Source: a virus
Lineage: Duplodnaviria > Heunggongvirae > Uroviricota > Caudoviricetes
DNA: 18,580 nucleotides
Virus record (IMG/VR): IMGVR_UViG_2537562015_000012
Direction: 5' to 3' (one strand)
Shown: one piece after another, positions 15,001-18,000 of the stretch
Layout of the letters: the number at the start of each line of letters is the position of its first letter
Position numbering within the stretch: the stretch's first letter is position 1
Made by a program: the position numbers

Positions 15001-18000
15001 CACCTTTCAGTGTCCGAAGGGTAAAAAACATCAATTACATAAGCAACACCAATTGGTATTAATGCTAGTAATAACATCGACACAGGACGTACAAACTTCT
15101 GAACTATATCAATTTTATAGAACCACAAGGCGGTATGTTTAATGATATAAGTAAAGATGGCTGCGCCAATAATGGCAAAAAACACCATCGATAAAGTCGG
15201 GTATAACTTTGCGACAATTAAACCCAACAAAATAATTATAACTGCCTGCCCCCTCACACCAACCCTCCCTTTAGCTTTGTTTAGAATGGCAATCATCATA
15301 TATCCAAGACATGGCATTTGGTACATAGCTTGGGTCGGGATTTCAAATCCGCTCCCCGTTGATGGGGCCGTTACAGTACGCGCATATCCGCTTTATGTGA
15401 AACAGGAAGATTTTTCTGATATCACTGCCACAGCAAAACACCAATTTCGTGACCAGTACGCGCGCGAGGTGTATCAGTTGCAAAATTTTTTGCAGCTGTG
15501 TCCGACCAGTACGCACGCGATGGCGGGGAGCACCATAAAACTGTTCTCTACATAAGACAGAGTGGTGGTGATGTGTTGATTATCGGCGTATATGCGCACA
15601 GGACGCGCTATGACGATGTTTTATGCGGGTACACCAATCACATGTATCTGGTGTGATAAATCGCGTTACATGACCTCTCATGTTGTGCTGGTGGTTATCA
15701 CGACGTTCTGAATCTGGCCTTTGCCTGATATTTTGCGACAAGTACGCGCGCGTAGCATCGACAGCATACACATTGGATATTCATTTTGTGACCAATGCGA
15801 TAAGTAGCGGGATAAGAATTGATAAAATCAACAGGACGATGATCCACTTCTGATTCTCGTCCATCTTATCTGCTAGGCGACGCTCCATTCCGTGCATATC
15901 ACCGCGAATGGCAATCATCTCATTGCGAACATCCGAGAAGTGGTTGGCTTGATGTTCAATGTGTGGCGTTCTGCCTTTCATTCCTGATCCTCACCTATCG
16001 TCACCACCTGCTGGTGTATAAAGGTATTGGCCCAAGCAGCTTTCTAATGGGCACTCATGTTTATACGCTGACCTTACAATCAATCACCGCTTTTAACTTT
16101 TCAGCATTGCTTCCCTGACGCTTCCACGCGCTGTAAATATCTTTATCCCACGCTTTACCAGCTTTTGTTTGATAGCCTGCTTCATTGATCCGTTCAGCTA
16201 TCACACGCCCATTATCAAATCCCTGTCGGATGGTATCGGCAATGATCTTTATAACTGCCGTTTCGTTATATGGCTTTGGTGGGATGTTCGGCTTTCCGGC
16301 AATAAGCGACGCAGCGGCTTTTTCCATGCGCTCCACCAGCCCAAGCATTCGTGAATCAATAGACTTTTCCGGCTGTCCCAGCTTCATGCGAATCGCATCA
16401 ACAAGCCAGGAGGTTTTATCCCCTCCAGAAGCGAGAACAGACCGATTAAACTCATCCTGCAATTCAGATGGGATGCGGAACGCGACCAGATTAGATTTGC
16501 TCATTGCAAAGACCATATCAGTGAGTAATATCCATACAGTATACCACTGTATAACACTGTTATACGCTCAAATATCAACCAGAAAATAACGGACCAATCA
16601 CAAAGCTATCGCTGTGTTGTTGGTTCAGAGCTGGACTGTGTTGGTTCAAAATGAGTTGATGTTGGTTCAATATTTCTGAAAAAACACAATAAAAACAACG
16701 ATCTTTACAAATTGAACCAACTGAACCAACACCTTTTTGCTTATCTATATAATCTGAGAGGCAGAAATGATAAGGGACAGGAAAGCTGAAGAGCTGGAGT
16801 CAAAAGGGCTATACCGGAGAGCTGCCGCACGATGGGCAGAAGTCATGATGCTGGCAGATGGCGATAAAGAACGTGAACATGCAGCAAACAGACGCTCTGA
16901 ATGTATCCGTAAGGCGGCACGCCAACCAGCAACTACAGACAGATTCGGAGATTTAAGACAGGCAGTTAAGCGGACTCATTCGGCTCTTGGTATGGATGAG
17001 GAAGCGAGAGGGTACTTCAGGCGTTATCGCGATAAAGATTGCCAGAGACAGTAATGCTCTCTCTGTTTTGGCAAATTACCCCTCACTTTGAAGGGATCGG
17101 AGCTATAAAAATGGTGTTATCCGGCTTCCTCAAATTTAGGTTTTCGAAAGAATCAATGGGTTAGGTCATCGTGCAAATTTGCACTCTGCCAGCCAACGCA
17201 ATTTCTCGTTGGCGGAAATATCAGGTATTTACTGAACGAACGGTCTACCAGTCTGTTCAGTTACCAGTTGCACATGGCTGTTTCATGTGAGAACGGAGGT
17301 TTTTTCGGACATCGCTATTGGGTACAGCAATTTCACGAGCAATACGCGCGCGCAGGACAACAAGCCTGAACATGGTTACACACCTCGAGCCTGAGGGATG
17401 TAGGCAATGGCTTCTGACCAAAGCACCCGAAAAAACCGTGTACATAAGGGTGTACATAATCAAAAATCGCATTAGAAAGAAACCAGCCACAATGCGGCAT
17501 TGAAGCCAACACTCTACAAACAGATTCAAGAGTAACTCGTAACACTAATTCTTACTTTTCAGCCTTCACAAATGCCGCCCACTCAAACAGAGCGGCATTT
17601 TTCTTCCCCGCAACTTCAATTCTGTTTTGCGTGCCTGCTCCAGATTTTGCGATGTTTTTTTGCCCAGCACACTGAGAACGTGAGATACTCACAACTGTAT
17701 ATAAATACAGTTACAGATTTACTTTCTTTGCAATCGATATCACATGGAGTGGGCAATGAACGAACATCATCAACCTTTTGAAGAAATACGGCATTATGGC
17801 ACTGAAGGGCAAGAATTTTGGTCAGCTAGAGAATTGGCACCGTTACTGGATTATCGGGACTGGCGCAATTTTCAAAAGGTACTGGCCCGCGCGACTCAAG
17901 CGTGCGAAGCCAGCAATCAAGCTGCATCTGACCATTTCGTTGAAACCACCAAAATGGTTGTATTAGGTTCAGGGGCTCAACGAGAACTTGAAGATGTTCA

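What the first reader, a model, noticed from the sequence alone, without database searches (positions are those of the whole stretch)
15781..16560. RHH-domain protein followed by a tail-anchored mini-protein, with a palindrome at its start
Seen: the 151-aa protein begins with an RHH-like motif (LVAFRIPSEL...GGDKTSWLVDAIRMKL) and is followed 79 bp downstream by a 66-aa protein with a single C-terminal TM helix. Just upstream of the RHH gene lies ACAGT-ATACC-ACTGT (about 16535-16560) with an additional ACTGT repeat. Inference: an autoregulated two-gene module; a regulator paired with a small membrane protein could be a toxin/antitoxin-like or exclusion-type unit.
Basis: partly seen in the sequence, partly recalled or inferred. 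Interest (0 to 1): 0.5.

Follow-up and report, generated by a model that had tools for sequence, protein, structure and literature searches.

The report
Satellite regulator gene plus phage-derived membrane cargo
The "two-gene module" is really a conserved, self-repressing DNA-binding protein at the end of a phage-parasitising island in E. coli, followed by a swappable cargo slot that in this strain holds a small membrane-protein gene picked up from P22-like phages; this is a fairly ordinary arrangement for such islands.

Summary
In detail: both ORFs, the 79-bp gap, the C-terminal membrane helix and the palindrome are there. The window is an EcCIMP1-like phage satellite (PICI) inserted into the 3' end of yicC, next to dinD.

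The "RHH" gene most likely starts at 16504 (147 aa). It is a highly conserved core gene of this satellite family across Enterobacterales, with an N-terminal ribbon-helix-helix and a C-terminal recombinase-like HTH.

Its extended -10 promoter is overlapped by two 7-bp sites 10 bp apart (16549-16565). In 47 loci from about 25 genera, two site classes track two variants of the DNA-reading beta-strand with no exception. This is strong comparative evidence for autoregulation.

The 66-aa gene is not a conserved partner. Downstream of the RHH gene lies a variable cargo slot holding Abi_2, ImmA/IrrE, RnlA, Fic or SocA elsewhere. The 66-aa gene is a 5'-truncated copy of a gene from the mnt operon of P22-like prophages, the position P22 uses for sieA, and it has been under purifying selection.

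A toxin-antitoxin pairing is rejected. An exclusion-type role is plausible but untested. This is a new member of known kinds, of moderate interest.

The parts
16061..16504 (-). Gene for a 147-aa RHH plus recombinase-like HTH protein. The ORF extends to 16516, giving 151 aa. It is a conserved core gene of the satellite family.
   Evidence: 357 clusters, 64-80% identity across Enterobacterales, conserved start MSKS. AF2 gives pLDDT about 90 for the C-terminal domain. HTH_62 hit in 22 of 25 members and Recombinase in 12 of 25, both weak; remote relatives hit RHH Pfam families.
16549..16565 (.). Operator: two 7-bp sites 10 bp apart (GTATAAC-N3-GTTATAC) covering about -35 to -18 of the RHH gene promoter.
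   Evidence: one copy in each of 11 RHH-bearing loci, none in 8 loci without the gene; heptamers invariant, spacer free, and class A/B sites co-vary with beta-strand residues in 47 loci.
16538..16546 (-). Extended -10 promoter element TGgTATACT. TG is at 16546-16545 and the hexamer TATACT at 16543-16538.
   Evidence: alignment A3: TA.A.T is invariant at a fixed distance from the operator, and TG at -15/-14 in most of the 21 aligned sequences. One search gives the coordinates. The strict sigma-70 scan missed it because there is no -35 match. No transcription start site has been measured.
16536..16550 (.). It overlaps the -10 hexamer and the end of operator site 2.
   Evidence: It is not conserved in Morganellaceae or in class-B loci.
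15781..15981 (-). 66-aa tail-anchored membrane protein gene. It is the first cargo gene and a truncated relative of a gene from the mnt operon of P22-like prophages.
   Evidence: phrog_6324, E 3e-15; family alignment; prophage contexts; 70-82% DNA identity (blastn pieces); dN/dS 0.07-0.15; hydropathy.
15982..16060 (-). Spacer between the two genes. No terminator is predicted. Its 3' part (16019-15982) is a remnant of the long form's coding sequence, interrupted by a stop codon.
   Evidence: upstream in-frame translation reads ...PAGGDDR*GSGM, against ...GGGDGGGSDM in the 110-aa forms. DNA homology extends to 16019; no terminator, folding z-score -0.2.
14901..15326 (-). 141-aa protein with about four hydrophobic segments. 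It is a second cargo gene, found with or without the 66-aa gene.
   Evidence: present beside ImmA/IrrE cargo in other strains; narrow, E. coli-only family; no similarity to P22 SieA; hydropathy.
16619..16730 (.). Five GTTGGTTCA iterons, three direct at 21-bp spacing and two inverted, flanking an AT-rich 43 nt. This is an origin-like cluster of the DUF927-replicase type.
   Evidence: EcCIMP1 has the same cluster 3' of its DUF927 primase and again next to PerC; a Klebsiella phage replicase 71% identical to the DUF927 half sits beside 11 such iterons.
16767..17054 (+). PerC-family gene, transcribed divergently from the RHH gene.
   Evidence: Pfam PerC, E 1.3e-32. The EcCIMP1 homologue represses LEE1 (PMC11773190).
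10647..14083 (+). P22-type ejection-protein genes (gp20-like and gp16-like), convergent on the cargo slot.
   Evidence: Inj_translocase, E 2.5e-73; 75% and 43% amino-acid identity to the gp20/gp16-like genes of a P22-like prophage, with 90.8% DNA identity over 1288 nt.
14134..14831 (+). IS1 copy (insA/insB reading frames) inserted between the gp16-like gene and the cargo genes. The element's ends were not mapped.
   Evidence: Searches list the ORFs. The IS1 InsB identification is from my reading of the translation. FORC_031 has IS3 plus a group II intron here instead.
1..2606 (+). Integrase (1-1269) and alpA (2388-2606), marking the other end of the satellite.
   Evidence: annotation. Phage_AlpA 26.4 bits against a cutoff of 21; window 2596-6377 is 94.6% identical to EcCIMP1.
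17525..17535 (.). Right junction (attR) of the island with the 3' end of yicC.
   Evidence: island-free E. coli genomes match the window only from about 17530 onward (yicC end plus dinD).

Best explanation
The window holds an EcCIMP1-like phage-inducible chromosomal island, a satellite of P22-like phages, integrated in the 3' end of yicC.

The 147-aa protein is a conserved core gene at the int-distal end of the island. It combines an N-terminal ribbon-helix-helix with a C-terminal recombinase-like HTH.

Inferred mechanism: two RHH dimers bind two 7-bp sites 10 bp apart (GTATAAC-N3-GTTATAC, 16549-16565). These sites cover the -35 to -18 region of the gene's own extended -10 promoter, so the protein represses its own transcription and holds it at a low, self-limited level while the island is integrated.

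Directly downstream begins the island's 3' cargo slot, which holds different defence or toxin-antitoxin genes in different strains and genera. In this strain the first cargo gene encodes a 66-aa tail-anchored inner-membrane protein. It is a 5'-truncated copy of a gene that P22-like prophages carry in their mnt (RHH repressor) operon, convergent on ejection-protein gene 16.

No terminator separates it from the RHH gene, so it is probably co-transcribed and shares the self-limited expression.

Its most likely role is a lysogeny-phase membrane function of the superinfection-exclusion or defence type.

Shown: gene anatomy, conservation, operator/protein co-variation, cargo variability, and the phage origin of the 66-aa gene. 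Inferred: DNA binding, repression, co-transcription, and the function of the 66-aa protein. The target of the second HTH domain is unknown.
For: **Island identity.**
- The region is 100% identical to E. coli FORC_031, between int and dinD.
- It is 94.6% identical to EcCIMP1 over window 2596-6377.
- It carries alpA, a primase, a gp20-like ejection protein and PerC.
- attR lies at about 17530.
- EcCIMP1 has been shown to be a PICI mobilised by the P22-like phage Kapi1 (PMC11773190).

**Core-gene status of the RHH gene.**
- It has 357 clusters at 64-80% identity across Enterobacterales and was found in 49 loci from about 25 genera.
- Only 83 representatives appear among 1.84 billion proteins, so the family is compact.
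- It is absent from GenBank phages.

**Operator.**
- It occurs once in each of the 11 RHH-bearing loci then fetched and in none of the 8 without the gene.
- Class A sites (GTATAAC-N3-GTTATAC; one Photorhabdus locus has GTCATAC) pair with the beta-strand S[NT]L[VI]AFR in 27 loci. Class B sites (GTCTTAC-N3-GTCTTAC; two Rosenbergiella loci have GTCTAAC in the first heptamer) pair with S[LI]SVTFR in 20 loci. There are no exceptions, and the two classes occur within the single genus Buttiauxella.
- The spacer varies freely, while the heptamers and the TA.A.T hexamer stay at fixed positions and TG precedes the hexamer in most sequences.

**Cargo slot.**
- In E. coli, homology breaks 35-45 nt before the RHH stop codon.
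- Downstream ORFs fall into about 130 families across about 40 loci.
- These include Abi_2, ImmA/IrrE, RnlA, Fic, SocA/Panacea, a trypsin-like protease, and a PRTase with a DprA-like partner.
- PICI 5' and 3' ends are known sites for immune systems (PMC11364771).

**The 66-aa gene.**
- It matches phrog_6324.
- Homologues of 77-113 aa lie in the order Mnt, 121-123 aa, this gene, a further 75-109-aa ORF in most loci, convergent on gp16 in P22-like prophages.
- DNA identity is 70-82%, and the homology runs upstream of the ATG across an in-frame stop.
- dN/dS is 0.07-0.15.
- P22 has sieA and orf59a downstream of mnt in the same place. SieA is an inner-membrane blocker of DNA injection (PMC10883804).

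**Co-transcription.** No terminator was found between or after the two genes.
Against: - No experiment bears on binding, repression, transcription or phenotype.
- The operator and the 5' end of the gene are only about 50 bp apart, so the co-variation could partly reflect two linked lineages rather than selection for matching specificity.
- Direct searches with the protein or its profile found no RHH family; the best single-member match was RHH_1 at E 0.074. Profile comparison with a Mnt homologue gave only the expected register, at 2% probability.
- The AF2 N-terminus has low confidence.
- The 66-aa copy is truncated relative to the long forms and could be inactive.
- It has no PADLOC hit and no similarity to SieA or orf59a.
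- EcCIMP1, the one tested relative, lacks the RHH gene yet still excises and transduces. The gene is therefore not essential for mobilisation, and its role in the satellite cycle is unknown.
Confidence: 0.6

Rival explanations
1. The two genes form a toxin-antitoxin-like pair. The RHH protein would be the antitoxin and autorepressor, and the 66-aa membrane protein the toxin.
For: RHH antitoxins that repress their own operon are common. Remote relatives of the protein hit the TacA1 antitoxin Pfam family. The two genes run in the same direction, 79 nt apart, with no terminator between them. Small hydrophobic proteins are often toxic.
Against: - The RHH gene is conserved at 64-80% identity in hundreds of clusters, while the downstream gene is unrelated or convergent in nearly all loci.
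- The 66-aa gene follows it in only about 166 of 562 E. coli genomes and in none of about 40 loci from other genera.
- In prophages the 66-aa family sits behind a different RHH protein (Mnt) and between two other small genes.
- The C-terminal part of the RHH protein is a folded HTH domain, not a disordered toxin-binding tail.
Confidence: 0.04
2. The RHH-HTH protein is a replication or copy-number regulator tied to the adjacent iteron cluster, comparable to CopG or P4 Cnr. Its HTH domain would bind the GTTGGTTCA iterons.
For: Iterons lie 75-350 nt upstream of the start codon in most of the 25 iteron-bearing loci of 48 (up to about 1.1 kb in Klebsiella and Raoultella). They directly abut the promoter in class-B loci. 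Both the HTH domain and the iteron sequence are nearly invariant while the RHH/operator pair switches class.
Against: - Iterons are absent upstream of the gene in Morganellaceae and in several other loci.
- EcCIMP1 keeps both iteron clusters but lacks the RHH gene.
- The iterons track the DUF927-type replicase, including in a Klebsiella phage. This window's replicase has a different C-terminal half and its own iterons, ACCTRTACCA at 8773-8876.
- Of 121 IMG/VR stretches with at least two iterons, only 16 carry the RHH gene.
Confidence: 0.1
3. The RHH-HTH protein serves excision (as a directionality factor) or packaging (pac-site recognition, like a small terminase) rather than acting mainly as a transcription factor.
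Against: - All structural matches are at a generic HTH level.
- The only conserved DNA motif near the gene overlaps its own promoter.
- EcCIMP1 excises and is transduced without this gene.
- The island's integrase is a tyrosine recombinase.
Confidence: 0.1
4. The 66-aa ORF is a decaying remnant of a phage gene carried along by recombination and has no present function.
For: An in-frame stop removes the N-terminal 45 or so residues seen in the 110-aa forms, and the upstream remnant is still recognisable. The window's island is visibly degraded elsewhere: IS1 is inserted, and the DUF2824 and gp7 genes are missing. A frameshifted variant, P0134, exists.
Against: - Short forms that start at the same conserved Met occur in intact P22-like prophage mnt operons (P0140, 77 aa), and a 66-aa form occurs in Leclercia (P0137).
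- The ORF is intact, at 95-100% DNA identity over the 1.2-kb region, in about 166 E. coli genomes.
- dN/dS is 0.07-0.15, although this mostly reflects history shared with the phage genes.
- A GAGGA Shine-Dalgarno sequence lies 6 nt upstream of the ATG.
Confidence: 0.2

Closest known systems
EcCIMP1, the E. coli MP1 PICI mobilised by the P22-like phage Kapi1 (PMC11773190)
   Same: Same satellite family. The early operon is 94.6% identical. Both carry alpA, an antirepressor, ash, an Icd-like gene, a primase with the same N-terminal half, P22-type ejection-protein genes, PerC and the GTTGGTTCA iteron cluster next to PerC.
   Different: The window's island has a different integrase and att site (yicC 3' end rather than tRNA-Thr) and a different replicase C-terminal half with its own iterons. 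EcCIMP1 lacks the RHH-HTH gene and the 66-aa gene; an excisionase-like alpA_1 sits in that region instead.
Phage P22 immI-proximal region: genes 14-7-20-16, then convergent sieA, orf59a and mnt (NC_002371; PMC10883804)
   Same: Same architecture: ejection-protein genes converge on an RHH regulator gene followed by small or membrane-protein genes expressed in the lysogen. The 66-aa protein is a true homologue of a gene in the mnt operon of other P22-like prophages.
   Different: The satellite's RHH protein is not detectably homologous to Mnt and carries an extra HTH domain. Its operator differs and it faces PerC, not arc-ant. The 66-aa and 141-aa proteins show no similarity to orf59a or SieA.
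Autoregulated RHH repressors (Arc, Mnt, CopG, omega, MetJ; established knowledge)
   Same: The N-terminal strand-helix-helix pattern matches. The operator is made of short repeats one helical turn apart and overlaps the promoter. The predicted base-reading beta-strand residues change together with the operator.
   Different: The RHH is fused through a long helix to a recombinase-like HTH (Pfam HTH_62/Recombinase, weak hits). The operator repeats are inverted in class A but direct in class B. No binding data exist.
Accessory/immune hotspots of phage satellites (P4 psu-int hotspot, PMC9122126; PICI 5'/3' ends and pri-adjacent region, PMC11364771)
   Same: A variable slot between conserved flanks, here the RHH gene and the ejection-protein genes. 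Across relatives it holds recognised defence or toxin-antitoxin genes.
   Different: The flanks and the satellite family differ. This slot also exchanges genes with the equivalent slot of the helper-type phage. The cargo in this window has no known defence annotation.

Membership tests
Ribbon-helix-helix (Arc/MetJ/CopG) DNA-binding superfamily | N-terminal beta-strand, helix, turn, helix recognisable by family profiles | tested here: inconclusive
   Direct Pfam and PDB sequence searches found no RHH family, and one of 25 members gave a sub-threshold RHH_1 match, E 0.074. hhalign against a Mnt homologue gave the right register at 2% probability. Remote two-domain relatives found by the family profile hit TacA1 (25.8 bits against a cutoff of 21) and RHH_1 (19-21 bits against 20.5). 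AF2 gives helices 17-29 and 34-46 at low pLDDT.
Ribbon-helix-helix (Arc/MetJ/CopG) DNA-binding superfamily | Operator of short repeats about one helical turn apart, read by beta-strand side chains | tested here: met
   Two heptamers lie 10 bp apart on the promoter. Two operator classes co-vary with beta-strand positions in 47 loci without exception. This is comparative evidence only, with no binding assay.
Type II toxin-antitoxin system | A conserved, adjacent, co-inherited toxin partner for the RHH protein | tested here: not met
   The downstream gene differs in nearly every lineage and is often convergent. The 66-aa gene is present in about 166 of 562 E. coli genomes with the region.
P22 Mnt / immI repressors | Sequence homology to Mnt or Arc (Pfam Arc PF03869) | tested here: not met
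   There is no Arc hit for this family. The prophage Mnt proteins beside the 66-aa homologues hit Arc at 3e-10. hhalign probability is 2%.
EcCIMP1-like PICI satellite | Integrase, alpA, primase, no capsid or lysis genes, synteny with EcCIMP1 | tested here: met
EcCIMP1-like PICI satellite | Helper-phage-dependent excision, replication and transduction | not testable with these tools
   This has been shown only for EcCIMP1 itself (PMC11773190).
SieA superinfection-exclusion proteins | Sequence similarity to a SieA type | tested here: not met
   BLASTP of the 141-aa protein against P22 SieA gave E 2.1. The 66-aa protein against orf59a gave no alignment. Neither protein matched a PHROG annotated as exclusion: the 141-aa protein had no PHROG hit and the 66-aa protein hit families of unknown function plus a weak holin. 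Only P22-type SieA was compared. The other two SieA types were not available.
phrog_6324 (phage protein family of unknown function) | Profile match | tested here: met
   E 3.3e-15 over residues 12-66.
Holins | Profile match and position in a lysis cassette | tested here: not met
   Only phrog_689 at E 0.024. The genomic context is never a lysis cassette.
Satellite accessory/defence hotspot | Variable gene content between conserved flanking genes, including known defence genes | tested here: met
   The cargo in this window has no PADLOC hit.
Plasmid partition (ParG/omega) or relaxosome accessory (NikA/TraY/MobC) RHH proteins | A partner ParA ATPase or relaxase/oriT in the element, and a family profile match | tested here: not met
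   No such genes appear in the island. Only sub-threshold NikA-like hits were found, and only in remote relatives.

The most novel reading that the evidence does not exclude
The satellite has built its own counterpart of the P22 immI-proximal module: ejection-protein genes, then membrane cargo, then an RHH regulator. The conserved RHH-HTH protein would be its lysogeny-phase gatekeeper. The RHH domain would set expression of the cargo, while the near-invariant second HTH domain would bind a still unidentified target, on satellite or helper DNA or on a protein. The satellite's own ejection-protein variants, together with membrane cargo such as the 66-aa and 141-aa proteins, would then form a lock-and-key system. 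That system would exclude superinfecting helper-type phages at the DNA-entry step while letting satellite-loaded particles through.
Probability: 0.1. Interest if true: 0.7.

Novelty: new member of a known kind. Interest (0 to 1): 0.4.

Why it matters
**The regulator.** It identifies an uncharacterised, strongly conserved regulator that marks one edge of the cargo slot in a widespread family of Enterobacterales phage satellites. The analysis gives a precise, testable operator model with two natural specificity classes. These classes are suitable for specificity-swap experiments and for annotating the satellites and their cargo slots.

**Gene flow.** The work also shows gene flow between the satellite's slot and the equivalent mnt/sieA slot of P22-like helper phages. 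That points to small membrane proteins such as the 66-aa protein as candidates for entry-level exclusion.

**Caveat.** None of this changes current concepts. It fills in one member of known kinds.

Tried and rejected
- **Defence and family libraries.** PADLOC, Pfam and NCBIfam gave nothing on the three proteins. The only results were sub-threshold Bax1-I and CBO0543 hits for the 141-aa protein.
- **Phage databases.** Neither the RHH protein nor the cargo DNA matched GenBank phages.
- **PDB by sequence.** The family profile gave only a spurious L14 hit.
- **Does the RHH protein target helper-phage DNA?** I scanned IMG/VR for the 17-mer operator. 31 of 120 hits sit beside the RHH gene, and the other 89 are unrelated, mostly low-GC (0.22-0.55) contigs, so they look like chance.
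- **A shared DNA motif for the invariant HTH domain.** A k-mer survey of 500 nt upstream and 300 nt downstream in 38 loci found only the class-specific operators, the iterons (14 of 38) and Chi.
- **Iterons as RHH-HTH sites or as integrase arm sites.** I rejected this in favour of a DUF927-replicase origin.
- **LexA box.** The palindrome reads CAG-N7-CTG, not CTG-N10-CAG, by inspection.
- **Rfam.** No hit in 14800-17800.
- **The stretch 15600-15761.** It first looked like a repeated element. It turned out to be the conserved upstream region of the 141-aa gene in related satellites.
- **Literature.** Searches for the protein accessions and for HTH_62 found nothing.
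Full report
**1. What is at the coordinates**

Both ORFs lie on the minus strand: 16061-16516 (151 aa) and 15781-15981 (66 aa), 79 nt apart. An alignment of 25 homologues puts the conserved start at M5 (MSKSNL), the ATG at 16504, which gives 147 aa. RefSeq uses the same start.

The 66-aa protein is hydrophilic for about 45 residues. A 19-residue hydrophobic stretch (W46-V64) follows, with only two residues after it.

A perfect 7-3-7 palindrome, GTATAAC-ACT-GTTATAC, lies at 16549-16565.

**2. Genomic setting**

The region is 100% identical to the chromosomes of E. 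coli FORC_031 and related human isolates. It matches 562 of 5426 complete E. coli genomes, almost always on the chromosome.

The annotation shows an integrative element running from a tyrosine integrase (window 1-1269) to dinD. It carries an HTH regulator, an AntA/B antirepressor, DUF4222, ash, an Icd-like gene, a primase, a "phage DNA ejection protein", two hypothetical genes (the finding) and PerC.

I confirmed the following:
- alpA at 2388-2606 (Pfam Phage_AlpA, 26.4 bits)
- the primase (zinc ribbon, Toprim, DUF5906)
- a gp20-like Inj_translocase protein at 10647-12002 (E 2.5e-73)
- PerC (E 1.3e-32)

Island-free genomes match only from about 17530 onward, which is the 3' end of yicC plus dinD. 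That position is therefore the right junction.

Window 2596-6377 is 94.6% identical to EcCIMP1 of E. coli MP1. EcCIMP1 has been shown to be a PICI induced and transduced by the P22-like phage Kapi1. It adds to superinfection immunity against Kapi1, and its PerC homologue represses LEE1 (PMC11773190).

The window is thus an EcCIMP1-like satellite with a different integrase and att site, and with IS1 inserted at about 14134-14831.

**3. The 147-aa protein**

It belongs to a compact, highly conserved family. There are 357 clusters at 90% identity, all in Enterobacterales, at 64-80% identity to the query and typically 141-145 aa long. A profile search of 1.84 billion representatives returned only 83 hits. 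These were one full-length 50% cluster, fragments, and a few remote relatives. The protein is absent from GenBank phages.

AF2 gives a confident C-terminal helical domain (residues about 80-147, pLDDT about 90), a long linker helix (53-73) and a low-confidence N-terminal helix pair (17-29, 34-46).

For the C-terminal domain:
- 22 of 25 members give weak hits to Pfam HTH_62 ("recombinase-like HTH") and 12 of 25 to Recombinase.
- The motif IAERLNEAGYQTKAGKAWDKD is, from my own knowledge, of the serine-recombinase "Recombinase domain" type.

For the N-terminal domain, direct searches find no RHH family, apart from one sub-threshold RHH_1 match (E 0.074) among the 25 members. Remote two-domain relatives recovered by the family profile do hit RHH families: TacA1 at 25.8 bits against a cutoff of 21, RHH_1 at 19-21 bits, and NikA-like. 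They also carry the recombinase-type motif at the C-terminus. The RHH assignment is therefore reasonable, but it rests on transitive and pattern evidence.

**4. Operator and promoter**

The 17-mer occurs exactly once in each of the 11 loci fetched by then that carry the gene, 44-45 nt upstream of the start codon. It occurs in none of 8 loci without the gene.

I fetched 49 loci from about 25 genera and tabulated 47 of them with a readable upstream region. Two classes appear.
- **Class A**, GTATAAC-N3-GTTATAC (inverted repeat; one Photorhabdus locus has GTCATAC), occurs in 27 loci: Escherichia, Klebsiella, Raoultella, Pluralibacter, Serratia, one Buttiauxella, Photorhabdus, Xenorhabdus, Morganella, Proteus and Providencia.
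- **Class B**, GTCTTAC-N3-GTCTTAC (direct repeat; two Rosenbergiella loci have GTCTAAC in the first heptamer), occurs in 20 loci: Rosenbergiella, Tatumella, Pantoea, Erwinia, Mixta, Cedecea, Chimaeribacter, Symbiopectobacterium and another Buttiauxella.

Class A always goes with the N-terminal strand S-[N/T]-L-[V/I]-A-F-R, and class B with S-[L/I]-S-V-T-F-R. When aligned to Arc and Mnt (NLRWP / NFRMP), the changing residues fall at the alternate positions that contact bases in those proteins. That alignment is my own inference from established RHH structures.

In the 21-sequence alignment the heptamers are fixed, apart from single-base variants in three loci of the 47, and the 3-nt spacer varies freely. 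Five nucleotides further on lies an invariant TA.A.T hexamer (TATACT, TACACT, TATAAT or TAAAAT), preceded by TG at -15/-14 in most sequences. This is an extended -10 promoter. The two sites cover roughly -34 to -18.

The simplest reading is two RHH dimers, one helical turn apart, occluding the gene's own promoter. One caveat applies. The operator and the 5' end of the gene are tightly linked, so two co-inherited lineages would also produce this pattern. What argues for selection is that the changes are concentrated in the inner heptamer bases and in the strand residues, while the spacing stays fixed and the spacers vary.

**5. What lies downstream**

The RHH gene is followed by variable cargo.
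- In Klebsiella, a PRTase-like protein with a DprA-like partner.
- In Serratia and in E. coli CFSAN027343, an Abi_2 protein.
- In E. coli G749, SCU-306 and B4103-1, ImmA/IrrE plus a 125-aa membrane protein.
- Elsewhere, Fic, RnlA, SocA/Panacea and a trypsin-like protease.

Across about 40 loci with enough downstream sequence, the ORFs in the 3 kb downstream fall into about 130 families. No locus outside the window type has a 66-aa homologue.

In E. coli, homology among genomes breaks 35-45 nt before the RHH stop codon. About 166 of 562 genomes continue into the 66-aa gene. The 141-aa four-segment membrane protein (14901-15326), together with its upstream 430 nt, occurs with either the 66-aa gene or the ImmA/IrrE pair. 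It is therefore a separate cassette and a narrow E. coli-only family.

The RHH gene is thus one conserved flank of a cargo slot, and the ejection-protein genes are the other. PICI 5' and 3' ends and the P4 psu-int region are known hotspots of this kind (PMC11364771; PMC9122126).

**6. Origin of the 66-aa gene**

It matches phrog_6324, a family of unknown function (E 3e-15). Its 37 homologous clusters include forms of 77 and 110-113 aa.

Those forms lie in P22-like prophages in this order: Arc (reverse strand), Mnt (83-85 aa; Pfam Arc, 3e-10), a 121-123-aa CxxC protein, this gene, and in most loci a further 75-109-aa ORF. The group is convergent on gp16, with gp20, gp7 and DUF2824 beyond.

In P22 itself the same position holds mnt, orf59a and sieA. 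[quoted passage not shown]

DNA identity between the window and these prophages is 70-82% (blastn pieces) over 15783-16019. The homology runs 38 nt upstream of the ATG. There the window reads ...PAGGDDR*GSGM, where the long forms read ...GGGDGGGSDM. The satellite copy is therefore a 5'-truncated derivative that starts at the conserved internal Met, the same Met the natural short forms use.

dN/dS over the last 48 codons is 0.07-0.15. No terminator is predicted between the RHH stop and the 66-aa start, or after the 66-aa gene. Co-transcription from the self-repressed promoter is therefore likely but remains inferred.

The window's gp20/gp16 region shares 90.8% DNA identity over 1288 nt with one such prophage. 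Satellite and helper-type phages evidently recombine across this block.

**7. The iterons between the RHH gene and PerC**

Five GTTGGTTCA copies (16619-16730) flank an AT-rich 43 nt.

EcCIMP1 has the same 3+3 cluster twice, once immediately 3' of its TOPRIM-DUF927 primase and once next to PerC. It lacks the RHH gene. A Klebsiella phage protein 71% identical to the DUF927 half lies beside 11 such iterons.

The window's primase shares only its N-terminal 351 residues with EcCIMP1's (85% identity). It has a DUF5906 C-terminal half and its own iterons, ACCTRTACCA x6, at 8773-8876.

The iterons are missing upstream of the RHH gene in Morganellaceae and in several other loci.

I conclude that the cluster is an origin-type element of the DUF927 replicon kept beside PerC, not the target of the RHH-HTH protein. 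That alternative is not fully excluded.

**8. Verdict**

Autoregulation is well supported by comparative evidence.

The "module" is a core regulator plus exchangeable cargo, so a toxin/antitoxin reading fails. An exclusion-type role for the 66-aa protein is a reasonable lead, based on its origin and on the analogy with mnt-orf59a-sieA, but it is untested.

What the RHH-HTH protein does beyond controlling its own promoter is unknown. EcCIMP1 manages excision and low-frequency transduction without it.

This is a new member of known kinds: an RHH autoregulator and a satellite cargo slot. It comes with a neat, testable specificity model.

Noticed in passing
whole window; e.g. 15687-15694 (+), 16333-16340 (-): There are twelve Chi sites (GCTGGTGG) in 18.6 kb, six on each strand, against a mean of 0.47 and a maximum of 3 in shuffles. 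In class-B relatives a Chi site lies immediately upstream of the RHH start codon. Fifteen of 38 loci have Chi within 500 nt upstream. This may protect the linear satellite DNA from RecBCD.
   Followed up: partly
window 8773-8876 and 16619-16730: The island carries two unrelated sets of origin-type iterons. ACCTRTACCA x6 lies just 3' of the DUF5906 primase. GTTGGTTCA x5 lies next to PerC, and its cognate DUF927-type replicase half is no longer in this island. EcCIMP1 carries the GTTGGTTCA cluster twice, about 8.5 kb apart and in inverted orientation, which recalls P4 ori/crr.
   Followed up: partly
window 10647-14083; L300 5515-8966: The satellite encodes its own P22-type ejection proteins. The gp20/gp16 region shares 90.8% DNA identity over 1288 nt with a P22-like prophage, which implies recent exchange between satellite and helper-type phage. 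This copy lacks the DUF2824 (gene 14-like) and gp7-like genes that relatives L010 and L019 keep.
   Followed up: partly
L019 (EcCIMP1, E. coli MP1) 3000-3900: The experimentally studied relative lacks the RHH-HTH gene. Between the PerC-side iterons and the ejection-protein genes it carries the excisionase-like alpA_1 instead. Its reported low transduction frequency might or might not be related.
   Followed up: no
L012 6395-7681; L299/L300 4270-5620: P22-like prophages carry an uncharacterised operon downstream of mnt, in the place of P22 orf59a/sieA. It encodes a 121-123-aa CxxC...CxxC protein, the 77-113-aa tail-anchored protein and, in most loci, a further 75-109-aa ORF (in L012 an N-terminally anchored coiled-coil protein).
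   Followed up: partly
window 14134-14831: IS1 lies between the gp16-like gene and the cargo genes. In FORC_031 the same spot holds an IS3 fragment interrupted by a group II intron. The window therefore comes from a closely related but different strain.
   Followed up: no
window 17695-17713: A canonical LexA box (CTGTATATAAATACAG) lies upstream of dinD, about 170 nt outside the island junction. It is part of the chromosome, not of the finding (by inspection).
   Followed up: no
P0222, P0235, P0238 (remote hits of the family profile): Some remote relatives are proteins with two or three tandem RHH-like repeats in one chain.
   Followed up: no
L004/L005 (Klebsiella) and the slot downstream of the RHH gene in many genera: The cargo slot recurrently holds a PRTase-like 218-aa protein paired with a 297-322-aa DprA/SLOG-like protein. 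This pair appears in Klebsiella and Tatumella as families F8 and F9 and looks like an unnamed two-gene defence candidate.
   Followed up: no
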